From the NCBI GenBank assembly GCA_000091205.1, contig AP006502.2: a DNA stretch of 64,000 nt; one strand, given 5' to 3'. Under the pieces are notes generated by a model. It saw only the letters and a list, made by a program, of their open reading frames with translations, ran no database searches and had not been told where the DNA came from. The stretch is from Cyanidioschyzon merolae (Eukaryota). This document shows, piece after piece, positions 39,699-62,501 of the stretch. Position 1 is the stretch's first letter; each line of letters begins with the position of its first letter. The position numbers were made by a program, and so were the translations under genes.

Positions 39699-40994
39699 TT
39701 ACAATACAACGCTTCGAGATATTGAAGAATCTCGGTGGATAGACCAGATCTGTTCGCCCAGCAATGCGTCAATCGTGACGACGCGCAGCTGGGGAAACTG
39801 CTTCTCTCGAGGTACAGGTATGGTATCGGTCACGATGACTTCCTCGAAGAGACCCGGTTCGCTCAGACGCTCAATCGCAGGTCCACTGAAAACCGCATGC
39901 GTGGCCATCGCGAAAACACATGCTGCGCCTTTTTCGCGCAAGAGGCGCGCCGCCGCGCATATCGTGCCGGCGGTGTCGATCATGTCATCAACTAGGACTG
40001 CGATTTTCCCGTCTACCTCTCCGATCAGGTTCATCACTTCAGCGACATTGTGTCCGGATCGTCGCTTGTCGATAATCGCGAGCGGTGCATCACAAAGCGC
40101 CTTGGCAAAGGCCCGCGCGCGGGCAACACCGCCGACGTCAGGTGCGACAACAACAAGATCCGCGAGTTGTCGGGCTGCGCCATGATGATTCGTATCCGCC
40201 GAACTTTGCTCGATTCTCTCCATCAGGTACCTAACGAGTGCCGGTGACGCATACAGATGATCAACCGGAATGTCAAAGTAGCCGCAGGATTGCGGCGAAT
40301 GGATGTCGACCAGAATCATCCGATCCGCCCCGGCACGCGTAATCAAATTCGCCATGAGCTTCGACGAGAGCGCCTCGCGTTTCTCTACCAGCCGATCCGC
40401 TCGAGCATATCCGTAATAGGGTACGACGACGGTAACCTGAGCGGCGTGCGCCCTCTTGACTGCGTCGATTGTGATGAGCAGTTCCATGATAGAATCTGAG
40501 ATGCACGGCCCGCAGGTGCTGCAGATGAGAAACACATCACATCCTCGCACAGACTCGGGGAGTTTCACGTACAGTTCGCCGTCAGAAAAGCGCTTTCGAA
40601 TGATGCGATCGGTGCCTTCCTTGCCTAGATACCGCGCAACTCGGTCGGGCAGTTCTCCGGTGCTACTGCCGCCGAATATCCGCAAGCGCGACGTACCAAA
40701 GTTCAGTCCAGAACGAATAACCGTATCGGATTGCCGCACAAACGGTTCATAGACGGACACGTAAACGCCCTCTCCCCGACGCTCCTGCTTTTTCTCCGGT
40801 GGTTCTGCGATCGCCTCAGGGATACGGACTCGGGAGCAGCTGCCCGGTGCCCAGCTCGCTTCACGTCTTCTACGTCGGAAACCCGTGATCGACGGCCGCC
40901 ACCGCGAGCAGTTCTTCAGTGAAACACTTCTCTGCGGATGGCTCAGTGTCGGACGCAACGCAACGAACTGGGGGCAGGCGTGCATCGCGCGCAA
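39699..40994 (-). CDS. PRS: Ribose-phosphate pyrophosphokinase (PRPP synthetase), with a ~100-aa N-terminal extension that may be an organellar targeting sequence.
   Basis: VVVAPDVGGVARARAFAKAL, the PRPP-binding loop VLVDDMIDTAGTICAAARLL, and the N-terminal Pribosyltran_N region SGLNFGTSRLRIFGGSS...DGELYVKLPESVRGCDVFLI. Confidence 0.9.
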   Translation of the reverse strand: MRAMHACPQFVALRPTLSHPQRSVSLKNCSRWRPSITGFRRRRREASWAPGSCSRVRIPEAIAEPPEKKQERRGEGVYVSVYEPFVRQSDTVIRSGLNFGTSRLRIFGGSSTGELPDRVARYLGKEGTDRIIRKRFSDGELYVKLPESVRGCDVFLICSTCGPCISDSIMELLITIDAVKRAHAAQVTVVVPYYGYARADRLVEKREALSSKLMANLITRAGADRMILVDIHSPQSCGYFDIPVDHLYASPALVRYLMERIEQSSADTNHHGAARQLADLVVVAPDVGGVARARAFAKALCDAPLAIIDKRRSGHNVAEVMNLIGEVDGKIAVLVDDMIDTAGTICAAARLLREKGAACVFAMATHAVFSGPAIERLSEPGLFEEVIVTDTIPVPREKQFPQLRVVTIDALLGEQIWSIHRDSSISRSVVL

Positions 40995-48137: not shown

Positions 48138-48758
48138 ATGGTAGTGGAGCACGCAACCCAGATCGAGGCCTGGGCCGCGTGTCACTCATCCTTTATGGTG
48201 GGCGTGACTGTTGGCCTCGTGCTTGCGAGCCTGTGCACGCCTTTCGTTGGGTTGACGAACACCCTGCGTATGGTTTTACAGGCGCAGATTGGAAGTTTGG
48301 CAATTGCGTCCGCTGGACAATTTTTTAGCCTGATTTCGGCTTATAACAACGGGGTGTTTCACCTGGACGCTGACGGTGGGTTGTGGGCGCTCGAGTCCGC
48401 GCTCGGCGCGGGGTGCTTCAGTGTTGGCAACCTTTTCGGGGCATCCTGCGGTGGTCTTCTGGGTACTTTTCTCTCGATACGGTTCGGGTTCATAATTGCG
48501 AGTGATATTGAAGAAGAGTGGACGCTGCTGTCTCGGTGTGCTATCGAGGGCATCCAGCGACTGGCGATCATCGGGAATCCGAGTGTACTGAAGCGCATTG
48601 TAGCCATACGGACTTCAGCGCTGGCGGTGAATGCGCAAACAAGAGTTCCAGGGGAGCACGAACAGGAGGTCTTTCTTATCCGTGGCCTCGTTTCGCGTGC
48701 GAACCGAGATGGCTCGTCGACGCTGTCAGTGCGGGGCGACCAACGGACGCTAGCGTGA
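48138..48758 (+). CDS. Hypothetical glycine-zipper membrane protein (Tim17/Tim22/OEP16-family-like?). It overlaps an antisense ORF (48359-49120), so which strand is coding is unresolved.
   Basis: GxxxG-rich hydrophobic stretches such as GAGCFSVGNLFGASCGGLLGTF. Confidence 0.25.
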   Translation: MVVEHATQIEAWAACHSSFMVGVTVGLVLASLCTPFVGLTNTLRMVLQAQIGSLAIASAGQFFSLISAYNNGVFHLDADGGLWALESALGAGCFSVGNLFGASCGGLLGTFLSIRFGFIIASDIEEEWTLLSRCAIEGIQRLAIIGNPSVLKRIVAIRTSALAVNAQTRVPGEHEQEVFLIRGLVSRANRDGSSTLSVRGDQRTLA

Positions 48759-49440
48759 ACGAACGAGGCGCTCTGGTGCCGGCGCATACGCTCTGCACAG
48801 ACCGGTTCCAATATTTTGAAGCACCCAGTTATGACCGTGTTCAGAAGATCCAATTGCATTTTACCTCTATGCACAGAACGAAGTTTGAATAGTGATAGCA
48901 ACTGGAGGCTAATCCGCATCAAAGACTGACTCAGTGCGCATCGCACTGGAGGCACTGCCCAGGAGAACTGTGTGTGTGTGTGTAGTGCTTCGACAGTCAC
49001 CAGGGAGCAACCGGAGAGCTCATTCCGGCGCGCTGCATTGTAGCGCAGCGCGGCAACAGGGTTTCGCAGTAGTTTCGCCGACGAGATACGTCCAACGGTT
49101 CCAGTCGCACCATTGCGCACAATGCGAAACTCGAGTCGCAGAGGCGAACAACTTGCTCTTCACGCCATGGCCTCCGTGACTATGTTACAGAAGGAGACCG
49201 TGTTTCGATCATTGCACCCGAAAACCGCTTAAAAGGCCATGTTTCTGCCACTGCACTGGACACACGCACATACACACACCACGCCCGGCCTGCCGTGATT
49301 CAGACTGCGGATGCAGCGATGGAAGACCAGGTGGGTACGCCGTCGTCGCCCGAAGCGTTTGCGTCCTCAAACGATACGTTGAAATCCAGTTATCGAGCAC
49401 GCGCCCCTCGGAGGATCGCGAGATAATCTTATTTCCGAGT

Positions 49441-49869: not shown

Positions 49870-51666
49870 TTACGGAGCTCGATCGTATTCAGCTCCGTCA
49901 ATGCTGAATATTTCGATGCCCTCCGATACGGCAATGCGTATATCCTCTAGGGCGTCGGCTACCTCACGGGCAGTGGAATCGCTTTCCGTTTCCAGATTGC
50001 GTCCACAGAAACGCGAGCTATCTCGCTCCGAGACAGAAGACGTCGACGAACTCAGTTTCACTTGATGATCGATCGGAAAGCTGCTATCATGGCCTCCTCT
50101 GGTGCGCCAGGCCTGGAGATACTCTCCAAAAGCATGCAGTGCGTGAGGAGCGACATAGGTATACGCTACAAGGTGTGTATCGGGGGCGCCTTCAGCCGGC
50201 ATCCAGTGCGGTGAATGGGGCGACACACTCCAGCTGTCGTCTCGGTGCGCTGTCGATGCGCTGGGGCTACCCATTCTCGAGCCAGAGTCCACAACCGGCG
50301 TGATCGGCGGGCGCTCCAGTCGCTCGCGGATTCGTTTCCAGGAAATTCCGCGGAACCAGCGATGGTGCTGTAAGCAGAGCGCATGACGAAGCCTCTCCTC
50401 CGGAGAGCGGCAGATTAACTGACGCACCAGCGACTGCGCCTCGGTGGAAACGTACGAGGGAAATTTGATTTTCGCTTTCATAATTCGCTTGTACAGAGCC
50501 ACGCGCGAGTGAACATTCTCTGGAGGCGCTTTACCGCCAGTCTTGTTATCGGCGGCTGCCTGGGCTGCAACTTTTGCTCGCCTTCCACGATCGCGTTTTC
50601 CAACCAGGCCTTGTGCTCGGACGGAAAAAGGCGGCTCCCCGGTAAGCATCTCGTATATTAAACATCCAAACGACCAGTAATCCGCTGCGAAAGAATGTCC
50701 CTCACGAGCGAGGAGCTCCGGAGCCATATAGTGCTCTGTACCGCACCAGGAATGGGTGAGAGAGCCGCTATCGACGAGATCAGATGCGTCTATCGACTCG
50801 AGCTGCGTCTGCATCGCACTGTCGTTTGGCGCTGATACGGCGTCTGCGTGGGCGGCCCCTGCGGTTCCACCGTTCCCTGGTGCACGGCGGAGGGATGCGT
50901 CGGCGCTCTGCGCCATGCCTGCACCTGTCTCAGTATCTAGGCGGCCCATGCCGGCTTTGCTGAGTCCAAAGTCGGTTAAGGCTACGTGGCCTTCATGGTC
51001 CAGGAGGACGTTCTCGGGCTTCAGATCCCGATGAACAATGCCGATTGAATGCAGGTGCTGTAAAGCAATGTACATTTCAGCTGCGTAGAAACGAGCAACT
51101 TCTTCACTGAAGAGCGCCTCCTTACGCAAATAATCCATAAGCGGGCCTCCTTGCAGATAATCCATGACCAGAAAAACTCTTGAAGACGTTTGAAATGCGC
51201 AATGCAGCCGTACAATAAATGGATGCACCGCACGCTGTTCGTTCCTCATATTGTTGTTCGTTCTTGGTGATCTACCGAGTCCCGGATTCAGCTCATAGCC
51301 GTGGTCCATTAAAAGCGCAAGGATGTCGCGCTCTACTCGAGCCTGAGCAGTGCCCCCGAAGCGGAGAAGCGCCTCTTTTTTCATCGATTTGATGGCGAAC
51401 AAACCACCCGTGGGTCGATATCGCGCCAGATAGACCTTGCCAAAGGCACCCGTTCCCAAGACGCTTAGGATCTGGAACAGCTCAAGGCGATGATGGTACA
51501 CTGCGGGGCCCGCGGTCCTATTCGATAGATTCGAAACAGCAGCAGCCGGCAGGTCACTCGATGCGGTCGTCGTCATCTGCAGCAGTGCACCTGCTGGGAT
51601 GAAGGCTGGCTCCTCATCTTCGCCAGCCTCGTGACGCTGCAGTGTCGCAATGGTCATGTGTGACAA
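49870..51666 (-). CDS. AGC-family Ser/Thr protein kinase (S6K/RSK-like), with low-complexity inserts in the catalytic domain and an AGC C-terminal tail.
   Basis: GTGAFGKVYLARY...FAIKSMKK (Gly loop/VAIK), HPFIVRLHCAFQT, HRDLKPENVLLD, DFGLS, GTEHYMAPE, and a C-terminal hydrophobic motif. Confidence 0.85.
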   Translation of the reverse strand: MSHMTIATLQRHEAGEDEEPAFIPAGALLQMTTTASSDLPAAAVSNLSNRTAGPAVYHHRLELFQILSVLGTGAFGKVYLARYRPTGGLFAIKSMKKEALLRFGGTAQARVERDILALLMDHGYELNPGLGRSPRTNNNMRNEQRAVHPFIVRLHCAFQTSSRVFLVMDYLQGGPLMDYLRKEALFSEEVARFYAAEMYIALQHLHSIGIVHRDLKPENVLLDHEGHVALTDFGLSKAGMGRLDTETGAGMAQSADASLRRAPGNGGTAGAAHADAVSAPNDSAMQTQLESIDASDLVDSGSLTHSWCGTEHYMAPELLAREGHSFAADYWSFGCLIYEMLTGEPPFSVRAQGLVGKRDRGRRAKVAAQAAADNKTGGKAPPENVHSRVALYKRIMKAKIKFPSYVSTEAQSLVRQLICRSPEERLRHALCLQHHRWFRGISWKRIRERLERPPITPVVDSGSRMGSPSASTAHRDDSWSVSPHSPHWMPAEGAPDTHLVAYTYVAPHALHAFGEYLQAWRTRGGHDSSFPIDHQVKLSSSTSSVSERDSSRFCGRNLETESDSTAREVADALEDIRIAVSEGIEIFSIDGAEYDRAP

Positions 51667-51894
51667 CCTGGGAAGCGCCTTGGTGCGCGAAGCGGCAACA
51701 AATGGTACTCGAAGCCGTCAACAAGTCTCAGAGGATGCTCGGGCACCTCCTCAACAAATAGTGACGAGGTAACGATCAAAAGTCGGGTGTGGCGGGTATG
51801 CAATCGCTATGATGCTGCACAGCACGCGTCAAAGAACCAGCTGTCGAAAAACCGAAACCTACCCGACGACGATACGCGTTACTGCTCTCTTTAT

Positions 51895-52076
51895 GAGCAC
51901 TTGTCACCGGTGAGCGCTGGCACCAAAGTCCTCTGCACAGCGCGCTCCTCACAGCACCAGCTTGTCGCGTTCTATCCTCTAGCACAAGAGCTTCCCGTCC
52001 GAGCACTTGTCACCGGCGAGCGCTGGCACCAAAGTCCTCTGCCCAGCGCGCTCCTCACAGCACCAGCTTACCGCGT
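51895..52076. repeat. Two 76-bp direct repeats (about 93% identical) separated by a 30-bp spacer, in the divergent intergenic region between the AGC kinase (-) and the DUG-fusion gene (+).
   Basis: GAGCACTTGTCACCGGTGAGCGCTGGCACCAAAGTCCTCTGCACAGCGCGCTCCTCACAGCACCAGCTTGTCGCGT is repeated as GAGCACTTGTCACCGGCGAGCGCTGGCACCAAAGTCCTCTGCCCAGCGCGCTCCTCACAGCACCAGCTTACCGCGT. Confidence 0.85.
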
Positions 52077-52528
52077 ACCGTATACCGTAGGTGTCGTGCT
52101 TTGACGTCAGTACGCTCAGCAGCTCCCGATTTTATCAGGTCCGGTCTGATCCAGGAAAACGAAAAGACTCTCCACCGACACGTGAAAAGGACGCTATGTC
52201 CAAAGCACCGGGTAACGCTCGCGGACGTCGAACACAAGAACGCCACCGGCCTGAGAGGGCGAGTTTCGAACCCGCACCACCACCGTTTGGCTTCGCCCCC
52301 TGGAGCGCAGCGCTCAACGGTGACGTCGCACCGCAGTCGGTATGCAGGGGTCGCGTCTTTACGCAGGGGACTTCGTTTAGCGACACTTGGAAAGGTACAC
52401 TGCTACACAGTGAAGAACCGTGCTTGCACTTGTGGCAGCGAGTCTCGTGACTGTGACCAGAAACTCTATCATCGAGCGATTTTGCATTAGCTGCGCACCG
52501 CTGCCTCTCAACCGCACCGTACTTCAAC

Positions 52529-55500
52529 ATGTGTCGCATGGTTGCGTACTTTGGGCCGGCAATTTTAGCAGCGGACGTTGTGACGAGGCCGTCGCGCTCG
52601 ATCATTCGCCAATCGTACGATGCACGGGAGCGTCTTTGTTCCGCAGGCGAGTATGTGCCTGCCTCGCTAAACGGAGACGGCTATGGTATTGGTTGGTATA
52701 GCGACGACGGCGTACCTTGCGTCTACAAGTCCATCAGACCCGCTTGGAACGACGCAAACCTGCACCACCTTGCGGAAAAAGGTATCCGTTCGCACTTGCT
52801 GTTCGCGCACGTTCGCGCTGCCACGGCGGGAACTTCCGTTACCGAGGAATCCTGCCATCCCTTCGCCTATGGACGCTATTTATTCCAGCACAATGGAACT
52901 ATTGCAGGCTGGCATGACGGTCGAGTGCGTCGTGCGCTTCTCAATCAGCTGAATGATGAACTGTACGGTTACGCTGTTCGAAACGGTGCAAGCGATAGCA
53001 TCGTGGCCTTCGCGCTCTTCCTGAACCAGATGGATCGCGGCACATCTGAGCGCTATAGCGCTGCAGAGCTGCAGGAAATGCTGCTTCACACCATTGCACT
53101 GATTGTAGAGACCACGACGACGTGCCTGTTGGGGACAAACTCTCCGTGTTCGGATAGAACGCCCGCAAATCGGAAAAGCATGCCACGTGATGACGTGTTT
53201 CTTTTGAATTTCCTGGTAACGGACGGTGAGACGCTACTGGCAACCAAGTATGTACGTGGACTCCGGGACCTGGATGCTCCGGCAGCTAGTCTGTATTTCG
53301 GAGCAGCGTCGTCGTACGGGCCAGTCACGCATCACGTTGGAACCGGTGCCGAAGACTATGCCTTCTCGTATCGAGCAGCAACCTGGGCGGGGGTCGTTGT
53401 TGTAGCCAGTGAGCCGCTGACGTCGAACCCGTGCGACTGGGTCCCGCTCCCTCGCAACTCGATACTGGTGGCTACCGCAGATCGACATTTGCTTGTGGAA
53501 AAGATGCCCGATCTACTGATGGGCCGCGAATCACCGCGAGCGGGTTCGCGTTTGTCGCCCAAGTTGCTGCCCCAGTCTAGTGCGCTTGTGCAAGCGTTGC
53601 ACGCTTTCGCAGGATCCACAGCGACGCGTTCCATTGCTGATCGCGGGGATCCGTTGCCGCCTATGAGGAGCGCAACTGCTGCGGCTCACGTCAGCTGGAG
53701 CCGACAACAGCAACACCAGGAGCAAGAGCGGCGCAAGAAACCTCTCTTACGGAGCAGTCAACAGGAACTAAGTAGCGCTGGAAGTGGCGCAATATCCACC
53801 GATTTGATTGAAATCGATGAATCAGATCGCTTGTTCACGATCCGTAGCAGCCGAGTGCTTTGCATGACGACAGTGCCTGTGCAGGAGGATGCACTGCCAC
53901 AAATAGCGCAGGAGCTGGAAACGATGCCATTATCTGCAGCGACGGCAACGAGTAATCGGTCTGGATGCACCGGGTCGCAACGTCAAGCCCTGCTCGTATG
54001 CGGTACTGGTGATGGTCATATGTATGCACTGCACCAGATATCGGGTCTGCTGGCGTCGGATAGTTTCGTCTCTGCGGATGGACGTGATATTCTGGGGATC
54101 GCTCGCTGGCAATGCAACAACCTCGCTGCGTACTTTGAGCAGAAGGGCATGCAACCGTCGGCAACGTTCACGGTCTGTGCGGCAGCAGATAACACCGTTC
54201 GCATGCATCGTTGGACTGTGGACGGTATAGAGGAGATTGCGAACTTTTTCTGCGGTACTGCAACGGGACACCCACTCTGTCTGGTCACCGATCAAAGTGC
54301 CGTGTATCTTGGGTTTCAAGACTGTTCGGTTCGTCGCCTCGATATGCAGGGACTCCTCGGCACGGTGAAAGTGGAACCAGAGGCTCGTCCGGAGGGAGCG
54401 GCTCACGTGCCTGTACTATCCGAACAGGCGCTTTTTCGCCGTCTGGGTCAGCGCGGAGAGCATAGCGACTTGGCACGCGCAAGTCAGCACTGTGGACCTG
54501 TTTACTGTTTGGCGCTTCACTCGAAAACTCGCCGACTCTTTTCTGGTTCCGGTGATGGAACCATTGCGGTCTGGAATACTGAAAGTGAAGAGCACGAAGC
54601 AACCCTGCGTGGCCATTGCGGCGCGGTACTTGCACTGAAACTCGACGAAAATGTGGATATCCTCTTCTCTGGGGCCAGGGATCGACGGATTCGTGTTTGG
54701 GATGTCGCTCGGAGTGCGAATTATGTCTGCCGACGAATTCTTCTCAGTTGGGACTATCACTGCGATGATATCTGTGCCCTAGAACTGTCCGAGTCATTCC
54801 TGTTTTCTGCATCCACCGACGGCGTCGTGGTGCTGTGGAGTCGCCCGGACCTCGCGGCGTTGGCACTGTTGCGTCTGCCGTCCGGAACGCTGTTGACGTC
54901 GCTGTGCGTCACACCGGACGCCTCAGCGATGCGTCCTGCAGCTACTTCGGATGCTATGAGCACGTCCGGTATGCTGTTTGCGGCGACCAGCGACGGCAGT
55001 GTCTACGGTTGGCATCTAGGCGCTTCGGGGTCATTGTACGGACGCATTTACGGGACGGATGCCGCTGACCTGGAAGGTACATCGCGGGTGCCTACGAAAA
55101 CGCTGCCCACAACAGCGGCATCATCTTGCGCTGGCTCTCTCGAAGCCGCAACACCGAATTCCATGCTGTTTTCGCTCAGCTCGCCACGTATTCGACTTGG
55201 AGATCCCGAATGGTCGAGTGTTGCGGCATTTGAGAGAGCCCTACGGACAGCGATTCGTTTTCGATCCATCGCTGTGGATACGAAGCAGTCCAACTTCCGT
55301 GAAGAGTCTTTTCATTGTGCGCGCTGGTTCTCGCGTCTTCTGGAGAACCTCGGAGCCGACCTGCGCATCGCACAACCAGTGGATGGAAAGAATCCCGTCA
55401 TACTCGCTCGTTTTGTCGATATCATTGGATGCAAGGGGCACGCGTGTCGCCCCGGGCCTCCCGCTTTCCCGTCGTCGCTGGCTCGAGCGCGTGTCCAGCA

Positions 55501-57103
55501 TCGCCATACCGTAGACGCAGCGCATGACGGTGAGCGTGAACATCAGGCACAGCAAGTGCGACGGCAGCATTTCCGTCAAACCGTTGTATTCTACGGGCAC
55601 TACGATGTCGTTCCCGCCCACCGGGAAGACGGCTGGTCTCACGATCCCTTTGATCTGCAGGTTTCGAATGGCTACTTTTATGGCAGGGGATGCACAGACA
55701 ACAAGGGCCCGATCCTTGCGATGATCTTCGCGATTGTTGATTTGCTCCAGGAGCAGCAACAGTGGCGGCATCAGCAGCGAAACATTCCAGCTGATCACGA
55801 GTTGGCGCCTCGCACAGCAGCAAACACGCTGACGAGTTCGACGAGGACTGTTCCGCCGCCTGCGGAGAGCGTGCATGCGGCAGTCTCGGCAGGTGCCTGC
55901 GACAACATCCATGGAGCATGTGACGATTTCGAACGCTCAACGAACGTGGTCCTCTTACTCGACGGTGAAGGCGAGGCCTCTAGTGCCGGCTTCCGTGAGA
56001 CCATCGCTCTGTTTAGAGACTGGATCGTGGGCAAGGATCTCGATCAGCGGCAAGCGGGCCAGCAGCTCGTTCCGAATGGCGACCCGCGTCCCGCACCGAA
56101 CGAGCCTGTTCCCCAGGTGGTTTGCGTCCTGCACGCGAACAGTCTCTGGGTTGATGATGTGCGTCCCTGTATCACGTACGGAATGCGGGGCCAGATCCTG
56201 CTCTCTGTGGAAATAACCGGTCCTTCGGGGAACTTGCATTCCGGCTTCGATGGTGGTGCTGTTCTGGAGCCAGCCGCTGACCTGTTGGCGATTCTGGCTA
56301 CACTGAGCGATGCCGGAGGCACCGCGCGTGTACCCGGCTTCTACGATGATGTGCGAGAGCTCACGCCCAGCGAGCGCTCCTGGTTGTCCGCAGTCCATTT
56401 CGATCGGCAAGCTTACCTCCAGCACTTGGGTGTTTCCCGTCTCGCAGCGGATAACGACTTGGATTTGCTGCAGAAACGCTGGTGTCAGCCGTGTCTCTCG
56501 ATCACAGAGCTGTCAACGAGCGCGAACGCAGTTGCAAATGGAGCTGCTTCGGCTGCGAGAAGCAGCACTGGTCGACTGGGTGCGATCTCTGCGCTCATAC
56601 CGCAGCGCGCGCAGGCAACGGTGGCGATTCGGACGGTCCCGAATCAGAGCCCGGAAAAGCTCCGAGCTGCAGTGGAGCAGCATCTGCACTTCGAGTTTGC
56701 GAAAAGACGCTCTCCGAACCAGCTGCGGATCACATGCACCAAACAGGGTGACTGGTGGCTCGGCGATATTCACGGGGAACGGTACCCGTCGTCGTCGTCG
56801 TCGTCGTCGAGGCAAGTCGAACAGCGTACCGGCTGTGAACAGCGCGCGCGACAGCGAGTCTTCGCCGTCTCTGAACGTGCCATCGAGCGCGTCTGGGGCG
56901 TGCAGCCGCTCTATGTTCGAGAGGGCGGCAGCATGCCGCTAACAGCGTGGCTAGAGCAGACACTAGAGGCGCCTGCGATCCACTTGCCTCTGGGGCAGTC
57001 CAGTGATGCACCGCACCTGCCGAACGAGCGCATCCGGGTGTTGAACTTGTTCCACGGTCGCATGATTCTCGGTGATATTGTTCGTTCGCTGGCGGTGCAA
57101 TGA
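52529..57103 (+). CDS. Tripartite fusion protein: class-II (Ntn) glutamine amidotransferase (Dug3-like), WD40 repeats, and an M20 metallopeptidase (Dug2-like). It corresponds to the glutathione-degrading DUG pathway.
   Basis: N-terminal MCRMVAYFGPA with the Cys2 nucleophile, plus YGIGWYSDD...HVRAATAG...HPFAYGRYLFQHNG. WD40 blocks HCGPVYCLALHS...SGSGDGTIAVWN and ...GARDRRIRVWDV. M20 motifs VVFYGHYDVVPA and GRGCTDNKGPILAMIFAI, with the metal ligands DGEGEA. Confidence 0.75.
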   Translation: MCRMVAYFGPAILAADVVTRPSRSIIRQSYDARERLCSAGEYVPASLNGDGYGIGWYSDDGVPCVYKSIRPAWNDANLHHLAEKGIRSHLLFAHVRAATAGTSVTEESCHPFAYGRYLFQHNGTIAGWHDGRVRRALLNQLNDELYGYAVRNGASDSIVAFALFLNQMDRGTSERYSAAELQEMLLHTIALIVETTTTCLLGTNSPCSDRTPANRKSMPRDDVFLLNFLVTDGETLLATKYVRGLRDLDAPAASLYFGAASSYGPVTHHVGTGAEDYAFSYRAATWAGVVVVASEPLTSNPCDWVPLPRNSILVATADRHLLVEKMPDLLMGRESPRAGSRLSPKLLPQSSALVQALHAFAGSTATRSIADRGDPLPPMRSATAAAHVSWSRQQQHQEQERRKKPLLRSSQQELSSAGSGAISTDLIEIDESDRLFTIRSSRVLCMTTVPVQEDALPQIAQELETMPLSAATATSNRSGCTGSQRQALLVCGTGDGHMYALHQISGLLASDSFVSADGRDILGIARWQCNNLAAYFEQKGMQPSATFTVCAAADNTVRMHRWTVDGIEEIANFFCGTATGHPLCLVTDQSAVYLGFQDCSVRRLDMQGLLGTVKVEPEARPEGAAHVPVLSEQALFRRLGQRGEHSDLARASQHCGPVYCLALHSKTRRLFSGSGDGTIAVWNTESEEHEATLRGHCGAVLALKLDENVDILFSGARDRRIRVWDVARSANYVCRRILLSWDYHCDDICALELSESFLFSASTDGVVVLWSRPDLAALALLRLPSGTLLTSLCVTPDASAMRPAATSDAMSTSGMLFAATSDGSVYGWHLGASGSLYGRIYGTDAADLEGTSRVPTKTLPTTAASSCAGSLEAATPNSMLFSLSSPRIRLGDPEWSSVAAFERALRTAIRFRSIAVDTKQSNFREESFHCARWFSRLLENLGADLRIAQPVDGKNPVILARFVDIIGCKGHACRPGPPAFPSSLARARVQHRHTVDAAHDGEREHQAQQVRRQHFRQTVVFYGHYDVVPAHREDGWSHDPFDLQVSNGYFYGRGCTDNKGPILAMIFAIVDLLQEQQQWRHQQRNIPADHELAPRTAANTLTSSTRTVPPPAESVHAAVSAGACDNIHGACDDFERSTNVVLLLDGEGEASSAGFRETIALFRDWIVGKDLDQRQAGQQLVPNGDPRPAPNEPVPQVVCVLHANSLWVDDVRPCITYGMRGQILLSVEITGPSGNLHSGFDGGAVLEPAADLLAILATLSDAGGTARVPGFYDDVRELTPSERSWLSAVHFDRQAYLQHLGVSRLAADNDLDLLQKRWCQPCLSITELSTSANAVANGAASAARSSTGRLGAISALIPQRAQATVAIRTVPNQSPEKLRAAVEQHLHFEFAKRRSPNQLRITCTKQGDWWLGDIHGERYPSSSSSSSRQVEQRTGCEQRARQRVFAVSERAIERVWGVQPLYVREGGSMPLTAWLEQTLEAPAIHLPLGQSSDAPHLPNERIRVLNLFHGRMILGDIVRSLAVQ

Positions 57104-57362
57104 TTTGCAGCAGTTGTCGCAGCGAGCCGAAAATCGTTTGCGTTCCCTTGTCCGCGGAAGCCGCAACCACGAGTTGGCGTCACCAGCGTCGCTCTGAACG
57201 AGTCCTGCTTGCGCGTGCGTGCACTGGCCAGGGTAGAGCCCTTCGTGGACGTCACCTGCAATGGCACGAAGACGCTCTGGTCCGTGCGTCACAGAGTCGT
57301 GCATACCGCGGCTGGTGCACCGCGCCAACACAGGTGTCCTCGTTTGGGTTCTCTCATGGATA

Positions 57363-57635
57363 AAACGTTTTCTTAGACCAGCGTTTTCCGATTGTGTGCT
57401 TTTTCTTTTCCTACTTTTTTCGTGTTTTTTCAGTGTGCTTTGAAATATCCATCAAACCCGCTACCTCCGAGTTACATTACCTATACTTCTTCTCGGATAT
57501 TTTCGTCGTTTCATGTGTTCTATCGCACACCTTATGCCTGCCCTAATCATCCGCAATAGCGTCTTTACCTTTGGTCCAGTTGCATCACGGAGACAGAACG
57601 GCGTTGCCGTACCACAGAGGGCGTCGGCTCGAGCT
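57363..57635 (+). repeat. RF2 repeat, copy 3, between the DUG-fusion gene stop codon and the ORC4-like start.
   Basis: AAAACGTTTTCTTAGACCAGCGTTTTCCGATTGTGTGCTTTTTCTTTTCCTACTTTTTTCGTGTTTTTTCAGTGTGCTTTGAAATATCCATCAAACCCGCTACCTCCGAGTTACATTACCTATACTTCTTCTCGGATATTTTCGTCGTTTCATGTGTTCTATCGCACAC...CACGGAGACAGAACGGCGTTGCCGTACCACAGAGGGCGTCGGCTCGAG. Confidence 0.7.
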
Positions 57636-57781
57636 CGGTTGGGTGCAGGTATGCCGCCTGTTGCTGCACTCGGAGGCGTTTCCGCGCGGGATGCAGCACA
57701 GCGCGCCGTATGCCTGTTGCCAGCACGACGGTTATGTCTCATATAATATAACAAAAGACGTAAAAGTATATAATTGTTCTG

Positions 57782-59518
57782 GTGCATGCGACGATGCCGG
57801 CGCTGCACCCTCGCGTCCAGTGGCGGGAACGGAGTTCCTGGCGTGATGCCCCGCCTTGCGCCTATGGCGACGCGCTTACCTGGGAGACTATGCACGGGCC
57901 GCGGCGTCCAGCTTCTGCAACCGCGAAAGCATCTGCCTGTGACGAGCGAAGCGCGGATGTCGGAGCCCACGACGAGAGCGCTGCGCGTCGAGCTCGTACC
58001 CTAATCACCGAGCATCTTACAGGCCCCGTTCTGGGGGAAGGACTCTCGTTTACGCCAGGTTTGGAGGCTGTGTGTGAAAAGTTGGTGGAGTTCCTGGTAG
58101 CAGCGCTGGCTCCGGACTCCGAACAGCGGCGGCGAGCAGTCAAATCGCTTCTCATCGCTGGTCCTCAAGGCAGTGGCAAGTCGAGTGTCGTTGAGACTGC
58201 GCTTGCACGATATCGAAAACGAACGCCGCGTGCCCGCCCTGCTATTTTCTATCTTGACGGAGAGATTTTCGCAGACGGCGATCTCAGCGCGTATCGGAGC
58301 TTTGTGGCGCAGCTACGACGCGAGTTACGATTGTATGACGGGCGTTTTCCATCGCGTTTTGCGGGCTGGGAGTCTCCGTTACCGGAGACGAGCTCGATGC
58401 CCGACGAGGAAGTGCCCGCGAATGACGTTCCGCATCAAGCGAGCGCTTGTATCGAAGCGATTGTGGAACACGTTCAAACGTTGCTGCGATGGACGCTCGA
58501 GAGCGCTGAGCGAAGCATGTCTGATGCCGGTGTACATCGGATTGCGGGTATCGTGCTGGTACTGGATAACATCGACTACTTTGCGCGGCGGATGCAGCAT
58601 GTCAGGCAGCACTTGCTGTATAGCTTGTTCAACATGCTGGGGTTCGATGATGCTTCGCCCTTCGTAATTATAGGACTCACTCGTCGGTATGACGCGATGG
58701 ATCTATTTGAAAAGCGCGTCCGCTCCAGATTTTCACAGACGGTACTTCACGTACCCTTACCGGAAAGCAGTGATGCAGTACGGACGCATCTAGCGTCGAA
58801 GCTTGAGGCGTTTTCGAAACCCGAGGTGGTATCGATTTGCCCGAGACTGGCAGCGAGCGCACGTGCTCTGCAGCAAGTGCTCCTCGAGGACCAGCGCCTA
58901 GCGCGCAGCATTGCGGATCTCTTTCGTCACTGTCGAGTTATGCGATTATACCAGGGGGCCTTGAGCCACGCACTCGTTGCGCTGACGTACGCTGCGATGA
59001 TGAATACGTGCGAGGCGACCGCTTGCCTCGAGCAACATCTGGTGTCGCATGTGGCCCACCGAGACATACGACAGAGATTGCTCGGCCTCACTTCTGCTGA
59101 ACTGGCATTGCTGGTCGCGCACAGCAGAGCAGCTCAACTTAATGAGAACCGGTTTGCTTCATTTCAGCAGGCCTTTGCAGAATATCAGCGGTTCGTCGGC
59201 AAAAGCGCCATGCTCACCACGCATCATTCGCAGCGTGCGACTGGCCTTGTTGCATGCAAAACGTTGTCTCAGGTAGAGGTGGACGGTCAGCGTATCGGAG
59301 GTATCTTTCAGTCCGAGGCTGTAGCGCTGCGCATTTTCGAGCAGCTGCTCGACCTCGAACTTCTTGTTGTTCCTGACGGGGCGCGCTATGCATGTCCAAG
59401 CAAACTGCAAATGCCGCTCGTGCCTACGTTTCCCGAAGTCGTCCTAGTAGACGTCGTCCAGGAACATCCCCACGCGAGCACCAGTCTCAGAATCTGGTGC
59501 AAATCATGGCTCGAATAG
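57782..59518 (+). CDS. ORC4: Origin recognition complex subunit 4-like AAA+ ATPase.
   Basis: Walker A LIAGPQGSGKSSVVETAL, followed by an ORC4-like LDGEIFADGDLSAYRSFVAQLRREL, a Walker B/sensor block VLVLDNIDY, and a C-terminal winged-helix-length tail. Confidence 0.6.
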   Translation: MHATMPALHPRVQWRERSSWRDAPPCAYGDALTWETMHGPRRPASATAKASACDERSADVGAHDESAARRARTLITEHLTGPVLGEGLSFTPGLEAVCEKLVEFLVAALAPDSEQRRRAVKSLLIAGPQGSGKSSVVETALARYRKRTPRARPAIFYLDGEIFADGDLSAYRSFVAQLRRELRLYDGRFPSRFAGWESPLPETSSMPDEEVPANDVPHQASACIEAIVEHVQTLLRWTLESAERSMSDAGVHRIAGIVLVLDNIDYFARRMQHVRQHLLYSLFNMLGFDDASPFVIIGLTRRYDAMDLFEKRVRSRFSQTVLHVPLPESSDAVRTHLASKLEAFSKPEVVSICPRLAASARALQQVLLEDQRLARSIADLFRHCRVMRLYQGALSHALVALTYAAMMNTCEATACLEQHLVSHVAHRDIRQRLLGLTSAELALLVAHSRAAQLNENRFASFQQAFAEYQRFVGKSAMLTTHHSQRATGLVACKTLSQVEVDGQRIGGIFQSEAVALRIFEQLLDLELLVVPDGARYACPSKLQMPLVPTFPEVVLVDVVQEHPHASTSLRIWCKSWLE

Positions 59519-59659
59519 CGCAGGCATCGACCTCAGAATCCTCATCGCAGCACCAGTGCAGCATCAACGCTCGCGAGCGACGACTTGCGCGCATGCTGCG
59601 GCGCGTGCACTCGTGCGATAATCGTGTGAGGTCAACACGAAGCACTTAACAGCGCGCCC

Positions 59660-60140
59660 CGTTGCTGCTTAGAGACTCGTTTCCGAACCCTTTTGTAGAT
59701 GTACAGCGTCCGCATTCAGCGTGATGCAACAAAGGTGTATGGATTCATGTGCAGTTTTAGGGTTCTGGATCTCGTTTTCTGGGTGACGCCTTCGACGCCC
59801 TGCCGCTGGAATTCGTTACGCCACCGGAATCGAGAAATCTGGGACGCTCTTGAACAACGGTTCTTACATTAAGTGATATTTTTTTATCCAATGCATACAT
59901 GGATGCAACCACTCGTCTTCTATGCTTACGCGTAGTGCGCTAACATTACGCATGTTCCAAGTTTACGGTCTCTTTGTTTCAAGGCAACTCGTGGACGCAG
60001 TAATACGAACCGCTGGATTGGCGATAACGCAAAGCCGACATCAACCCGTGACGAATGATTCACGAACTGGTGCCGAAAGTTTGCCGCGCTGCTCACGTCA
60101 AATAATCGGTTCCTTTCGAAAGTCAATTCGCCTCGCTTTG
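59660..60140 (+). repeat. Solo RF1 3' module, starting ~140 bp after the ORC4-like stop codon.
   Basis: GACGCCTTCGACGCCCTGCCGCTGGAATTCGTTACGCCACCGGAATCGAG...GAACAACGGTTCTTAC...ATGCATACATGG...TTTACGGTCTCTTTGTTTCAAGGCAACTCGTGGACGCAG...GTCAAATAATCGGTTCCTTTCGAAAGTCAATTCG. Confidence 0.6.
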
Positions 60141-61394
60141 TAACCGCTGATGAGCTTGCATGCGATACCGGCATGATCGCTGTCGGGTGATGTGCTCCTA
60201 GCGTCTACCGTCTCTGTTGCTTGTATGAAAAGAAGGGTCATGGACACGGTCTTGGTACGCCGCAGCGATCGTTCCCAGTGCAGCGTTTGTCACCGCTTTT
60301 GCGCGAAGGAAGCGACAGCGGATCGACATTTCTCGGCTTGTTCTATGGCCTGGATTTTGCTTTCACCGATTGTTTCATTATGGACAACGTCGCGTGCCGC
60401 AAATCTTTGACCGAATGGAAAAGCGTTCGCTTGCGCGTGCACCGGAGAGCGTGCTTGCTGAAGCCACTGTTCAGAAAGAGCCTGTGATCATAGTGTACGG
60501 TGCCGGACTCGAAAACGGACGGGGACATCAACACTAGCCTTCTGTGCCCGTCAAAGGCATGTAGAGTCCGATGGTGCAAGCGTCCACGAGCCACAGACCG
60601 ACGTTTAGAATTGGCGTTGTGGTGGACGTAGACGAGCGTTTGATCATTGTCAAGTGCCGCTGCTGCGAATCGCGTACTGAGGCAGTACGTGTATGAAATG
60701 AAAAAGGCAAACGGAGCGTAAATCGGATTTCCCGCCTGTGCATCGAATGCGCCAACAACTACCGGAAGTAGCGAAATCGAGCCTTGAACCCTGCCACCAA
60801 CACCCTTCTACTAATGACCACAGAGGCCGGGGGAACAGACGCTACCAGTGCATTGAAAGCGCGAGATAAACAAGAGGAACAAGAATCAATCGCAGAGCAA
60901 GCCCGAAAAGACTCGTGTTGATGATCGTGTGAAGAGCCACAAACTTTAGTGCTTATATCCGAATCAGCTCGGAGTGCTTGTTCTATTCTGGTATCACATG
61001 GGTGCACGGCCGCCGTGGCGAACGCACGCAGCCGGCACTCGACACCCAGAGCGTCTCACGAGCGAACCAGGACTGCCCCCGCCGAACAAAAAAACGGAAG
61101 TATGACTGGTGCTGGCTGGTGGAACCTGCAGCCCAGGCGCCGCATAATGGACGCTCTCCCGAACACTGATAAGCGCCCCGAGATCGGGCATCCCCTGGCT
61201 CGTGGTGTCGGGCTGGCACCTCCATAAAAAAATGGCGCTCATGCACCCAACGCGGTACCGCTGATGCATATGACTCGATCCGCGGAATCGTCTTCATCGA
61301 ACGCATCGCGACCGTATCCTTCAGAAATCGCTGCACGATCATCAACACAGAGCAGCAGACGCGAGCATCAGCAGCGTACGCAATGCACCGGACC

Positions 61395-62501
61395 TCAAGG
61401 TCGACGCCGTTCCGCCCGCTCGCGCTTCTTCGGAGAGCGTTCGCTTTTCTGTTCACGCTTCTGTCCGTTTGACGAGGTGCCAAGCGCTGACAGCCCTGCA
61501 ACGAGCGCCGTTGCTCCAGTGACACGGCCGCCGCGATCAGGCATCTCGCCGATGCGCAGGTGCTTTATGGGGGCTGCCCTAACACCCGGTGCCGATCGTG
61601 GCAAGATGGACCGGTTCTGCTCAGTGTCTGTGCGTATCGCACGCACGTCATAGATATGGAAGTATGGTTGTACGGTCTCGCGAAATCGCTGTGTGATGAG
61701 TTGACACCAAAGGGTCAACGCACTCGATCGCTTCGCGGCGAGAAACACCTCTAGAGTGAGCTCGAATCGTTCTAAAAGCAATGCTCGACGTGCGGTATAC
61801 TCTGTGAATAGGTCATCGAACAGCGTCTGCAGCCGTTCGGCGTCCAACGCCTCTACGGATGCCAGGTGCGCGTGGGATGCGAGCATTCGCTGGGCGGAGA
61901 GAATCGACGGGTGCTGATGACGAAGGAGCCGCAGCCGTCGCACCGCTTCTAGAAAGAGCATTTTTCGAAGGGATGCGCCCTCAAGCTCGTCCTCAGGCAC
62001 AGCAAGCCCCATTTCCCGCAGTGCCGTTGCGTCGGGCACTGCGCTCGGCGCGGGCAGTCCCAGCGCATGGAACAGGCGCCTCTGTGACTGAACCACCTCC
62101 AAGTCTCCAGTGTTGTGCAGCTCTAGTCGCGACGCTTCGGTACTATCGGTCAAAGCATCGTCCAAGGATCGCATCCGGACTCGTTTTCGCTGCAGAAGGT
62201 ATATAGTTTTAACGAGGGTAAGCAGGATGTCGGTTAGCGCTTTCGCAGACGTGTTTGTCAAGTCCCGATTGAGCAGTGCCCCCAGCAGGGTGCGTGTTCT
62301 GTGCAGCGTTACCGTCCACTCGGTTGCTGGCAGCAACCAAGGCCATTCCGAGGCATTCGCAAAAGCAGTTCCGCTGAAGATAACCGGAAAGAACGCCGAA
62401 GTCGAGAGCGCCCACAGCAGAGACTCCAAACCGTATCTCTCTTGTTGTGCTTCCATTCGCGTGGCGTGCTCCGCAAATTCTACCCGCTCCCTGTTGAACA
62501 A
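61395..62501 (-). CDS. Hypothetical protein with a basic C-terminal tail.
   Basis: 368-aa ORF. No recognisable domain. The Lys/Arg-rich C-terminus is KREQKSERSPKKRERAERRRP. Confidence 0.3.
   Translation of the reverse strand: MFNRERVEFAEHATRMEAQQERYGLESLLWALSTSAFFPVIFSGTAFANASEWPWLLPATEWTVTLHRTRTLLGALLNRDLTNTSAKALTDILLTLVKTIYLLQRKRVRMRSLDDALTDSTEASRLELHNTGDLEVVQSQRRLFHALGLPAPSAVPDATALREMGLAVPEDELEGASLRKMLFLEAVRRLRLLRHQHPSILSAQRMLASHAHLASVEALDAERLQTLFDDLFTEYTARRALLLERFELTLEVFLAAKRSSALTLWCQLITQRFRETVQPYFHIYDVRAIRTDTEQNRSILPRSAPGVRAAPIKHLRIGEMPDRGGRVTGATALVAGLSALGTSSNGQKREQKSERSPKKRERAERRRP

What the first reader, a model, noticed from the sequence alone, without database searches (positions are those of the whole stretch)
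52529..57103. Single 1524-aa gene fusing Dug3-like glutamine amidotransferase, WD40 repeats and a Dug2-like M20 peptidase
In budding yeast the alternative glutathione-degradation (DUG) pathway uses two separate polypeptides that assemble as a (Dug2-Dug3)2 complex: Dug3p, a class-II Ntn glutamine amidotransferase, and Dug2p, which has WD40 repeats followed by an M20 peptidase domain.

Here one uninterrupted ORF encodes all three modules in the order GATase-II, WD40, M20:
- GATase-II: MCRMVAY.. with the Cys2 nucleophile
- WD40: ...SGSGDGTIAVWN..., ...RIRVWDV...
- M20: HYDVVPA, GRGCTDNKGP

A natural fusion of the two partner proteins is a Rosetta-stone confirmation of the Dug2-Dug3 functional pairing. 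It suggests this alga has a DUG-type gamma-glutamyl peptide hydrolase, which would be notable outside fungi.
Basis: partly seen in the sequence, partly recalled or inferred. Interest (0 to 1): 0.65.

Follow-up and report, generated by a model that had tools for sequence, protein, structure and literature searches.

The report
Single-chain Dug3–Dug2 glutathione-degrading enzyme
This red-alga gene joins in one protein the two partners that yeast uses as separate subunits to break down glutathione, and the joined form turns out to be common in algae and protists, so the pathway is not confined to fungi as the literature says.

Summary
Window 52529..57103 (+) is one uninterrupted 1524-codon ORF. 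It encodes an N-terminal class-II (Ntn) glutamine amidotransferase starting Met-Cys, a seven-bladed WD40 propeller and a C-terminal M20 peptidase-like domain.

The sequence is identical to Cyanidioschyzon merolae 10D BAM83269.1. GenBank already calls it a [quoted passage not shown].

The Dug3/Dug2 reading is supported:
- The amidotransferase domain groups with fungal Dug3-type proteins. It stays below the curated EgtC cut-off.
- The M20 domain scores higher against fungal WD40+M20 (Dug2-type) proteins than against Dug1/CNDP dipeptidases. It shares with the fungal type an Asp-to-Asn change at a metal ligand.

The fusion is not special to this alga. The same domain order occurs in red and green algae, diplonemids and coccidian apicomplexans. 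Partial sequences suggest Nannochloropsis and Guillardia too. 38 of the 150 best cluster representatives carry it.

In C. merolae the M20 general-base Glu is Gly, so that domain is probably a scaffold or dimerisation module, not a peptidase.

The likely function is cytosolic cleavage of glutathione or gamma-glutamyl peptides by a homodimer equivalent to yeast (Dug2-Dug3)2. Activity is inferred, not shown. I rate it a new variant of a known kind, of moderate interest.

The parts
52529..57103 (+). Complete coding sequence, 1524 codons plus stop (TGA at 57101-57103). Identical to C. merolae 10D BAM83269.1 / XP_005539305.1.
   Evidence: ORF list; exact-sequence look-up; coordinates re-translated.
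52529..53518 (+). Class-II (Ntn) glutamine amidotransferase domain, residues 1-330, Dug3-like. Conserved residues: Cys2, Arg96, Asn122-Gly123, Asp156.
   Evidence: Pfam GATase_4 and GATase_6; HMM match 1-326; conserved residues in alignments; confidently folded in the AF2 model.
52532..52534 (+). Codon for Cys2, the predicted N-terminal nucleophile once the initiator Met is removed.
   Evidence: MC(R) start is invariant in the stand-alone relatives aligned and near-invariant (≥90%) across the fused homologues; translation checked.
53519..53806 (+). Linker 1, residues 331-426. Rich in Ser, Ala, Arg and Gln, predicted disordered. Sequence is not conserved but the reading frame is kept.
   Evidence: pLDDT <50 for residues 368-423; composition; 13-19% identity to two cyanidiophycean orthologues, both still single ORFs.
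53807..55018 (+). WD40 beta-propeller, residues 427-830, about 28 strands, i.e. seven blades.
   Evidence: Pfam WD40 and many propeller families on 641-781; AF2 strands 427-829; Foldseek matches to seven-bladed propellers such as G-beta and beta-TrCP.
55019..55264 (+). Linker 2, residues 831-912, largely disordered.
   Evidence: pLDDT <50 for residues 845-892; 29-37% identity to orthologues.
55265..57100 (+). M20A peptidase-like domain, residues 913-1524, Dug2-like, with three lineage-specific insertions (about 1079-1135, 1160-1197, 1388-1445).
   Evidence: Pfam Peptidase_M20; NCBIfam dipeptidase models; PDB CNDP1, CNDP2 and Dug1 at E about 1e-46; alignment; insertion sequences.
55961..55975 (+). 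Degenerate catalytic motif DGEGE (residues 1145-1149). Gly1148 sits where active M20 enzymes have the general-base Glu; Glu1149 is the retained metal ligand.
   Evidence: Alignment with bacterial dipeptidases (EGEEE) and Cyanidium (DGEEE); census; translation.
56138..56140 (+). Asn1204, replacing the metal-ligand Asp of active M20A dipeptidases (the SDN/SDT motif).
   Evidence: Printed PDB alignments show CNDP1 and CNDP2 with D opposite the query's N; never D in 67 fused proteins: Asn in 62, Ser in 5.
56126..56689 (+). M20 lid/dimerisation sub-domain, residues 1200-1387, including His1237 of the HSG motif.
   Evidence: HMM positions 179-350 matched; 49-68% identity to orthologues; alignment.

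Best explanation
This is one gene of the red alga Cyanidioschyzon merolae. It encodes a single-chain counterpart of the fungal Dug3 plus Dug2 pair.

Proposed mechanism:
- After removal of Met1, Cys2 of the N-terminal Ntn amidotransferase domain attacks the gamma-glutamyl amide bond of glutathione or related gamma-glutamyl peptides. This releases Cys-Gly (or the amino acid) and then glutamate.
- Arg96 and Asp156 would hold the glutamyl alpha-carboxylate and alpha-amino groups. Asn122-Gly123 would form the oxyanion hole.
- The seven-bladed WD40 propeller is the platform on which the amidotransferase domain sits. In yeast this contact is made between two proteins; here it is made within one chain.
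- The C-terminal M20 domain has lost the general-base Glu (Gly1148) and one metal ligand (Asn1204). It most likely serves as the dimerisation and scaffold module, giving a homodimer equivalent to yeast (Dug2-Dug3)2.

The nucleophile must be the first residue. So the amidotransferase has to come first in any fusion, and an N-terminal targeting peptide is hard to fit. The enzyme is therefore probably cytosolic.

Shown: the ORF, the domains, the conserved and degenerate residues, the relationships, and the wide distribution of the fusion. Inferred: the substrate, the activity, dimerisation, localisation, and the residue roles (by analogy to GlmS/PurF-type enzymes).
For: ORF and domains:
- Single ORF with three domains above Pfam cut-offs.
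- Catalytic residues of class-II amidotransferases are conserved: C2, R96, N122, G123, D156.

Relationships:
- The best named non-fused relatives of the N-terminus are fungal Dug3-type proteins. The fused clade is sister to the fungal clade.
- The curated EgtC cut-off is not reached: 157.8 against 218.65 bits. Fungal Dug3-type proteins score 154-177.
- The M20 part scores higher with fungal WD40+M20 proteins than with bacterial dipeptidases or Dug1/CNDP. Eukaryotic Dug2-like M20 domains separate from bacterial dipeptidases at 100%.
- Asn replaces the metal-ligand Asp in fungal Dug2-type proteins and is never Asp in any of 67 fused proteins (62 Asn, 5 Ser). The general-base Glu is lost in 41 of those 67, including this protein.

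Structure and single-gene status:
- AF2 model of residues 1-910: pTM 0.81, a folded amidotransferase domain and a seven-bladed propeller, with disordered linkers.
- The same uninterrupted ORF sits in the same gene neighbourhood in Cyanidium caldarium and in a 52%-identical relative, although linker 1 is only 13-19% identical.
- Transcriptome-derived ORFs with both end domains exist in Gracilaria, Porphyridium aerugineum, Lacrimia and Namystynia.

Yeast biochemistry:
- (DUG2-DUG3)2 cleaves GSH to Glu + Cys-Gly, and the two proteins must form a complex (PMC9804317).
- The complex also acts on gamma-Glu-Met (PMC7617739) and transfers gamma-glutamyl groups (PMC6508711).
Against: - No activity, transcript or protein data for C. 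merolae were available.
- The WD40 region cannot be told apart from generic WD40 proteins by sequence, so its orthology to the Dug2 propeller rests on position only.
- The fused-plus-fungal node has only 69% NJ support. The nearest bacterial relatives are 36-39% identical, almost as close as the fungal ones, so substrate specificity cannot be read from phylogeny.
- No verified S. cerevisiae Dug2 or Dug3 sequence could be brought into the comparison. 'Fungal Dug2/Dug3-type' rests on architecture and on database names.
- Whether C. merolae has a Cys-Gly dipeptidase to finish the pathway was not checked.
- The domain roles in yeast (WD40 binds Dug3; M20 dimerises and has no peptidase activity) are recalled from Kaur et al. 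2012, which could not be read here.
Confidence: 0.7

Rival explanations
1. The architecture is as described, but the physiological substrate is not glutathione. The enzyme would be a gamma-glutamyl amidohydrolase for another compound: an ergothioneine-pathway intermediate as for EgtC, gamma-glutamyl dipeptides, phytochelatin-type peptides or gamma-glutamyl amines.
For: - The only curated NCBIfam model hit by the N-terminus is EgtC (157.8 bits).
- Bacterial class-II amidotransferases of unknown role are nearly as similar as the fungal proteins.
- The yeast complex itself accepts gamma-Glu-Met (PMC7617739).
Against: - The score is below the EgtC equivalog cut-off of 218.65, as it is for fungal Dug3-type proteins.
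- The domain groups with fungal Dug3-type proteins, not with the sequences that reach or approach the EgtC cut-off.
- EgtC enzymes are stand-alone proteins, whereas this one carries the Dug2 modules.
- The bacterial relatives examined are not in egt clusters.
Confidence: 0.2
2. A bifunctional enzyme. The amidotransferase domain releases Cys-Gly, and the fused M20 domain then cleaves it to Cys and Gly, combining the Dug2/3 and Dug1 steps in one protein.
For: - The M20 domain is homologous to Cys-Gly dipeptidases Dug1 and CNDP2 at E about 1e-46.
- It keeps four of five metal ligands (His1024, Asp1057, Glu1149, His1496) and the lid His1237.
Against: - The general-base Glu is Gly1148 and the fifth metal ligand Asp is Asn1204.
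- That Asp is missing in all 67 fused proteins (62 Asn, 5 Ser). The base Glu is missing in 41 of 67, which indicates no selection for peptidase chemistry.
- Yeast Dug2 is reported to lack peptidase activity (recalled from Kaur et al. 2012, not read here).
Confidence: 0.05
3. Not one gene. Two adjacent genes (a Dug3-like and a Dug2-like) merely happen to be in frame, or an internal start yields separate products.
For: - No transcript data for C. merolae were examined.
- Linker 1 is unconserved and disordered.
- JGI's gene caller on a metagenome relative started the protein inside the amidotransferase domain (P0002).
Against: - There is no stop codon for 1524 codons.
- The frame is kept through unconserved linkers in three cyanidiophycean lineages, and through an in-frame Ser/Thr indel among strains.
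- 38 of 150 cluster representatives, and every top full-length hit, have the same order.
- Transcriptome assemblies from other species give one ORF spanning all modules.
Confidence: 0.03

Closest known systems
Saccharomyces cerevisiae (Dug2p-Dug3p)2 complex of the DUG glutathione-degradation pathway
   Same: - The same three modules: a class-II Ntn amidotransferase with N-terminal Cys (Dug3), and a WD40 propeller followed by an M20A domain (Dug2).
- The amidotransferase domain is sister to fungal Dug3-type proteins.
- The M20 domain shares the Asp-to-Asn metal-ligand change with fungal WD40+M20 proteins.
- In yeast the two proteins must form a complex to cleave GSH to Glu + Cys-Gly (PMC9804317).
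   Different: - One polypeptide instead of two, with disordered linkers of about 96 and 82 residues.
- The M20 general-base Glu is Gly here, whereas the fungal sequences examined keep Glu.
- Three lineage-specific insertions in the M20 domain.
- Found in an alga, although the pathway is described as fungus-specific (PMC9012958, PMC6508711).
- Activity is untested.
EgtC (TIGR03442), gamma-glutamyl hercynylcysteine sulfoxide hydrolase of bacterial ergothioneine synthesis
   Same: The same Ntn class-II amidotransferase family. It is the best curated NCBIfam hit, and PDB 4zfj matches residues 1-126. The chemistry is the same: hydrolysis of a gamma-glutamyl amide.
   Different: - Below the equivalog cut-off: 157.8 against 218.65 bits.
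- EgtC is a ~235-285-aa stand-alone protein.
- It lacks the eukaryote-specific loop near residues 36-46.
Dug1p / CNDP2 / CNDP1 (M20A Cys-Gly and carnosine dipeptidases)
   Same: The same M20A fold with a lid domain. These are the best PDB sequence matches to the C-terminus: 3dlj, 4ruh, 4g1p and 2zof at E about 1e-46.
   Different: - Those enzymes keep the full His/Asp/Glu/Asp/His metal site and the Glu-Glu pair. Here Asp is Asn1204 and the base Glu is Gly1148.
- They have no WD40 or amidotransferase modules.
Arabidopsis GGP1/GGP3 gamma-glutamyl peptidases
   Same: Cytosolic cleavage of GSH to Glu + Cys-Gly. GGP1 complements yeast dug2 and dug3 mutants (PMC9804317).
   Different: They belong to an unrelated family, are single-domain, and need no partner. 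The resemblance is functional only.

Membership tests
Dug3-type class-II glutamine amidotransferase | Ntn class-II amidotransferase domain with the nucleophile Cys directly after the initiator Met | tested here: met
   The protein starts MCR. Pfam GATase_4 scores 49.0 bits (cut-off 23) and GATase_6 32.1 bits (cut-off 27). C2, R96, N122, G123 and D156 are conserved.
Dug3-type class-II glutamine amidotransferase | Groups with fungal Dug3 proteins rather than with EgtC or other bacterial class-II amidotransferases | tested here: inconclusive
   The best named non-fused hits are fungal, one labelled DUG3. The NJ tree puts the fused clade sister to the fungal clade, but with 69% support. No verified yeast Dug3 sequence was available.
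Dug3-type class-II glutamine amidotransferase | Works only together with a Dug2 (WD40+M20) partner | tested here: met
   The partner modules are in the same chain, in all 35 top homologues and in 38 of 150 cluster representatives. Functional dependence itself was not testable.
Dug3-type class-II glutamine amidotransferase | Hydrolyses the gamma-glutamyl bond of glutathione | not testable with these tools
   Needs an enzyme assay or yeast complementation.
Dug2-type protein | WD40 propeller directly followed by a C-terminal M20A peptidase domain | tested here: met
   Pfam WD40 scores 59.9 bits (cut-off 27) and Peptidase_M20 52.3 bits (cut-off 24.6). AF2 gives a seven-blade propeller at 427-830. 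The M20 HMM matches 1014-1522.
Dug2-type protein | M20 domain closer to fungal Dug2-type proteins than to Dug1/CNDP or bacterial dipeptidases | tested here: met
   216-239 bits to ascomycete WD40+M20 proteins, against at most 168 for bacterial dipeptidases and about 160 for Dug1/CNDP. They share Asn in place of the metal-ligand Asp. Clade separation from bacterial dipeptidases is 100%. Dug1/CNDP sequences were not in the tree.
Dug2-type protein | WD40 domain orthologous to that of Dug2 | tested here: inconclusive
   BLAST scores to fungal WD40+M20 proteins (43-59 bits) are no better than to unrelated WD40 proteins.
Dug2-type protein | M20 domain without peptidase activity that mediates homodimerisation (as recalled from Kaur et al. 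2012) | not testable with these tools
   The sequence is consistent: Gly1148 for the base Glu, Asn1204 for Asp, and an intact lid sub-domain at 1200-1387. Activity and oligomeric state need experiments.
EgtC (TIGR03442 equivalog) | Score at or above the curated equivalog cut-off of 218.65 bits | tested here: not met
   157.8 bits. Fungal Dug3-type proteins score 154-177. Bacterial relatives annotated as EgtC score 211.6-222.5 bits, one above the cut-off.
Active M20A dipeptidase (Dug1/CNDP2 type) | Complete di-metal site (His, Asp, Glu, Asp, His) plus a general-base Glu | tested here: not met
   The pattern at the nine scored positions (HxD His and Asp, bridging Asp, the three motif residues, metal Asp, lid His, C-terminal His) is HDD-EGE-N-H-H, against HDD-EEE-D-H-H in the bacterial dipeptidases. 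CNDP1 and CNDP2 have D opposite Asn1204.

The most novel reading that the evidence does not exclude
The DUG-type glutathione/gamma-glutamyl-peptide amidase is not a fungal invention. On this reading it is an old eukaryotic enzyme whose original form is the single chain amidotransferase-WD40-M20, and fungi split it into Dug3 and Dug2.

In this family the M20 domain would be a conserved pseudo-peptidase. It has never kept the second metal site, but it keeps one metal site that may help to hold the Cys-Gly end of the substrate or to regulate the amidotransferase.
Probability: 0.3. Interest if true: 0.55.

Novelty: new variant of a known kind. Interest (0 to 1): 0.4.

Why it matters
Papers on glutathione turnover call the DUG pathway fungus-specific (PMC9012958, PMC6508711). 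This gene and its many fused relatives in red and green algae, diplonemids and coccidian parasites show that the Dug3/Dug2 machinery exists well outside fungi.

That bears on how sulphur and glutathione are recycled in algae. Arabidopsis uses unrelated enzymes for this step (PMC9804317).

A natural single-chain version from a thermoacidophile is also a practical gift. No structure of Dug2, Dug3 or their complex turned up in the PDB searches. A fused, heat-adapted protein fixes the 1:1 stoichiometry for structural work.

The repeated loss of the M20 catalytic Glu gives a clean case of a peptidase domain kept as a scaffold.

The finding adds little to the Dug2-Dug3 pairing itself, which is already shown experimentally in yeast. 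The fusion is also already recorded in the gene's GenBank name.

Tried and rejected
- **Kaur et al. 2012 (PMC3308760):** not held. Its statements on domain roles are therefore cited from memory only.
- **Literature on a fused or non-fungal DUG enzyme:** searches found nothing. 'K14262' matched only unrelated papers, and one broad search was uninformative.
- **WD40 orthology by BLAST:** inconclusive, because generic WD40 proteins score alike.
- **Foldseek of the 1-910 model against the PDB:** returned only generic propellers and no Dug2/Dug3 entry.
- **Gene neighbourhoods of three bacterial relatives of the amidotransferase domain:** no M20 gene and no egt cluster. These say nothing about an older functional link.
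- **First bootstrap script:** timed out and was rewritten.
- **Asparagine synthase, GlmS or PurF type N-terminus:** rejected, because no such Pfam or NCBIfam hits appeared.
- **Chance ORF or two in-frame genes:** rejected on frame conservation and ORF statistics.
- **Neighbouring genes:** a protein kinase and ORC4, unrelated in function.

Full report
**Observation.** The window contains a single ORF at 52529..57103 on the + strand. It is 1524 codons long and starts at the first ATG after the upstream stop, with the sequence MCRMVAY. Given the window's composition, a stop-free run of this length has a probability of about 5e-28 per position.

Pfam assigns four families above their gathering scores:
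- GATase_4: 49.0 bits (cut-off 23)
- GATase_6: 32.1 bits (cut-off 27)
- WD40: 59.9 bits (cut-off 27)
- Peptidase_M20: 52.3 bits (cut-off 24.6)

NCBIfam hits only EgtC for the N-terminus and M20 dipeptidase models for the C-terminus. PDB sequence matches are CNDP1, CNDP2 and Dug1 for the C-terminus, many WD40 proteins for the middle, and a class-II amidotransferase (3mdn) and EgtC for the N-terminus. No Dug2 or Dug3 structure appears.

**Identity of the gene.** The protein is identical to Cyanidioschyzon merolae 10D BAM83269.1 / XP_005539305.1 / UniRef100_M1VCM2, on a 1.62-Mb record. The depositors named it a 'large fused protein of putative glutamine amidotransferase and glutamate carboxypeptidase'. 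So the organism is indeed an alga, and the fusion as such was already recorded in the annotation. The flanking genes are a protein kinase (49870..51666, −) and an ORC4 homologue (57782..59518, +), which are unrelated in function.

**One gene or two.** I could not examine C. merolae transcripts. The indirect evidence for one gene is strong:
- Cyanidium caldarium (42% identical) has an uninterrupted 1398-codon ORF.
- A metagenomic relative (52% identical) has a 1484-codon ORF from its MCRMVAY start.
- Both sit in the same neighbourhood of kinase, fusion gene, ORC4 and DUF2465.
- Linker 1 (residues 331-426) is only 13-19% identical between these lineages, yet the frame is kept.
- Near-identical strains differ by an in-frame Ser/Thr insertion at residue 1428.
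- Transcriptome-assembled ORFs from Gracilaria changii, Porphyridium aerugineum, Lacrimia lanifica and Namystynia karyoxenos carry the amidotransferase at the N-terminus and M20 at the C-terminus.

**The N-terminal domain.** Residues 1-330 align end to end with ~285-330-aa stand-alone class-II amidotransferases. M1, C2, R96, N122, G123 and D156 are conserved. By analogy to GlmS/PurF-type enzymes (my knowledge), these are the nucleophile, the glutamyl carboxylate binder, the oxyanion hole and the amino-group binder.

Searched alone, the domain's best hits run in this order:
- Partial Nannochloropsis and Guillardia proteins.
- Fungal ~300-aa proteins at 37-41% identity, including one named 'putative glutamine amidotransferase DUG3'.
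- Bacterial class-II amidotransferases at 36-39% identity.

The EgtC equivalog cut-off (218.65 bits) is not reached by C. merolae (157.8) or by fungal Dug3-type proteins (154-177). Bacterial relatives annotated as EgtC score 211.6-222.5 bits, one above the cut-off. A neighbour-joining tree gives the fused-protein domains as one clade (100%), the fungal proteins as one clade (100%), and the two together at 69%, nested among bacterial sequences.

**The middle.** An AlphaFold2 model of residues 1-910, built on 29 fused homologues, has mean pLDDT 75.7 and pTM 0.81. It shows:
- a folded amidotransferase domain;
- a disordered stretch at 368-423;
- about 28 strands between 427 and 829, i.e. seven blades;
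- a second disordered stretch at 845-892.

Foldseek finds only generic seven-bladed propellers. By BLAST the propeller is no closer to fungal WD40+M20 proteins than to unrelated WD40 proteins. Its equivalence to the Dug2 propeller therefore rests on position.

**The C-terminal domain.** Searched alone, residues 900-1524 first hit algal proteins. They then hit ascomycete proteins of 812-935 aa with WD40 plus M20 (the Dug2 architecture) at 216-239 bits. This is ahead of stand-alone bacterial dipeptidases (at most 168 bits) and of Dug1/CNDP in the PDB (about 160 bits).

Alignment shows which active-site residues survive:
- Retained: His1024/Asp1026, Asp1057, Glu1149, His1237 and His1496.
- Lost: the general-base Glu is Gly1148 (motif DGEGE against EGEEE).
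- Lost: the remaining metal-ligand Asp is Asn1204.

CNDP1 and CNDP2 have Asp opposite Asn1204 in the printed PDB alignments.

A census of 67 fused proteins gives the following:
- None has Asp at that position (62 have Asn, 5 Ser). The same holds for 14 of the 15 eukaryotic proteins in the census that lack the amidotransferase domain (WD40-M20 proteins and M20 fragments).
- The general-base Glu is kept in 26 and lost in 41.
- It is kept in Cyanidium, Volvox, Cyclospora and most of the fungal type.
- It is lost in C. merolae, Gracilaria, both Porphyridium species, Cymbomonas and Namystynia.

Many of the 67 are close relatives, so these counts are not independent events. Eukaryotic Dug2-like M20 domains separate from bacterial dipeptidases with 100% support. 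The domain looks like a peptidase fold kept for something other than peptide hydrolysis.

**Distribution.** All 35 best full-length homologues have the amidotransferase first and M20 last, and almost all start MCR. Named sources are listed below.
- Red algae: Cyanidium, Gracilaria, Agarophyton, Hildenbrandia and two Porphyridium species.
- Green algae: Cymbomonas and Volvox.
- Diplonemids: Diplonema, Rhynchopus, Lacrimia and Namystynia.
- Coccidia: Cyclospora, and Besnoitia at 3500 aa.
- Fragments only: Nannochloropsis and Guillardia.

In an exhaustive search with the N-terminal domain, 38 of the 150 best 50%-identity cluster representatives carry both end domains in this order. Two of these proteins already bear DUG2 labels: Porphyridium purpureum 'putative di- and tripeptidase DUG2' and Rhynchopus 'K14262/DUG2'. 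The split form was seen only in fungi. I did not see land-plant or animal members among the hits listed, but I did not test for their absence.

**Mechanism proposed.** The yeast facts are:
- (DUG2-DUG3)2 cleaves GSH to Glu + Cys-Gly.
- The two proteins need each other (PMC9804317).
- The complex is cytosolic and also degrades gamma-Glu-Met (PMC7617739).
- It can transfer gamma-glutamyl groups (PMC6508711).

From my recollection of Kaur et al. 2012 (not readable here), the WD40 domain binds Dug3, and the M20 domain dimerises Dug2 and has no peptidase activity.

From these I infer that the C. merolae protein is a single-chain (Dug3-Dug2) unit that dimerises through its M20 lid domain. It would cleave the gamma-glutamyl bond of glutathione or related peptides at Cys2. 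The free N-terminal Cys explains why the amidotransferase is always first. It also argues for a cytosolic location.

The rivals are a different gamma-glutamyl substrate, a bifunctional enzyme with an active M20 domain, and two separate products. I rate them at about 0.2, 0.05 and 0.03.

**Comparison and novelty.** The closest known system is the yeast Dug2-Dug3 complex. The modules and the M20 degeneracy agree. The differences are the single chain, the loss of the base Glu, the insertions and the host. It is not an EgtC equivalog and not an active Dug1/CNDP-type dipeptidase; both were tested and not met.

The literature I could search calls the pathway fungus-specific (PMC9012958, PMC6508711) and contains no account of a fused or algal form. 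Database annotations have noticed the fusion and, in places, the DUG2 link. I therefore rate it a new variant of a known kind, of moderate interest.

The Rosetta-stone argument is logically sound but confirms a pairing already proven by experiment. The more useful points are that the system is widespread outside fungi and that a natural single-chain version exists for biochemical and structural work.

Noticed in passing
window 49870-62501; L001 940-10168; L002 55-10104: The gene order protein kinase (−), fusion gene (+), ORC4 (+), DUF2465 (−) is conserved between C. merolae, Cyanidium caldarium and a 52%-identical metagenomic relative. Protein identity across these is only 42-52%.
   Followed up: partly
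window 56789-56815 (residues 1421-1429, SSSSSSSRQ): A serine run in an M20 insertion is polymorphic among near-identical strains. Metagenome variants carry R1428S plus two or three extra Ser/Thr residues, always in frame.
   Followed up: partly
homologues P0003, P0023, P0254, P0262, P0028, P0034, P0248 (M20 motif column): The M20 general-base Glu is replaced by Gly, Gln, Ala, His, Val or Asn in different lineages. The sister species Cyanidium keeps it. This suggests repeated independent loss in a domain that had already lost one metal ligand.
   Followed up: partly
P0315 (Besnoitia besnoiti, 3500 aa), P0340 (3089 aa), P0347 (3013 aa), P0035/P0251 (Cyclospora, 2036-2119 aa): Some versions of the fused protein are two to three times longer, including those of the coccidians Besnoitia and Cyclospora. 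The amidotransferase and M20 domains sit at the extreme ends. What fills the middle was not examined.
   Followed up: no
L006 5001-8824 (Criblamydia sequanensis): A bacterial relative of the amidotransferase domain lies directly upstream of an M1 aminopeptidase (PepN-like) gene on the same strand. This is a possible two-step gamma-glutamyl-peptide breakdown pair. Two other bacterial loci showed nothing comparable.
   Followed up: no
window 52135-57331, − strand and other + frames: About twenty ORFs of 100-223 aa overlap the gene in other frames. I did not search them against any library. I take them to be by-products of a GC-rich coding region, not genes.
   Followed up: no
window 39699-40994 (−) and 48359-49120 (−): A ribose-phosphate pyrophosphokinase (PRPP synthetase) gene lies at 39699-40994. 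A 253-aa ORF with no Pfam match lies at 48359-49120.
   Followed up: no
P0296 (Phalansterium solitarium, Amoebozoa, 573 aa transcript ORF): An amoebozoan transcript encodes the amidotransferase domain plus about 250 further residues without an M20 match. It could be a truncated fused form or a Dug3-like protein with an extension.
   Followed up: no
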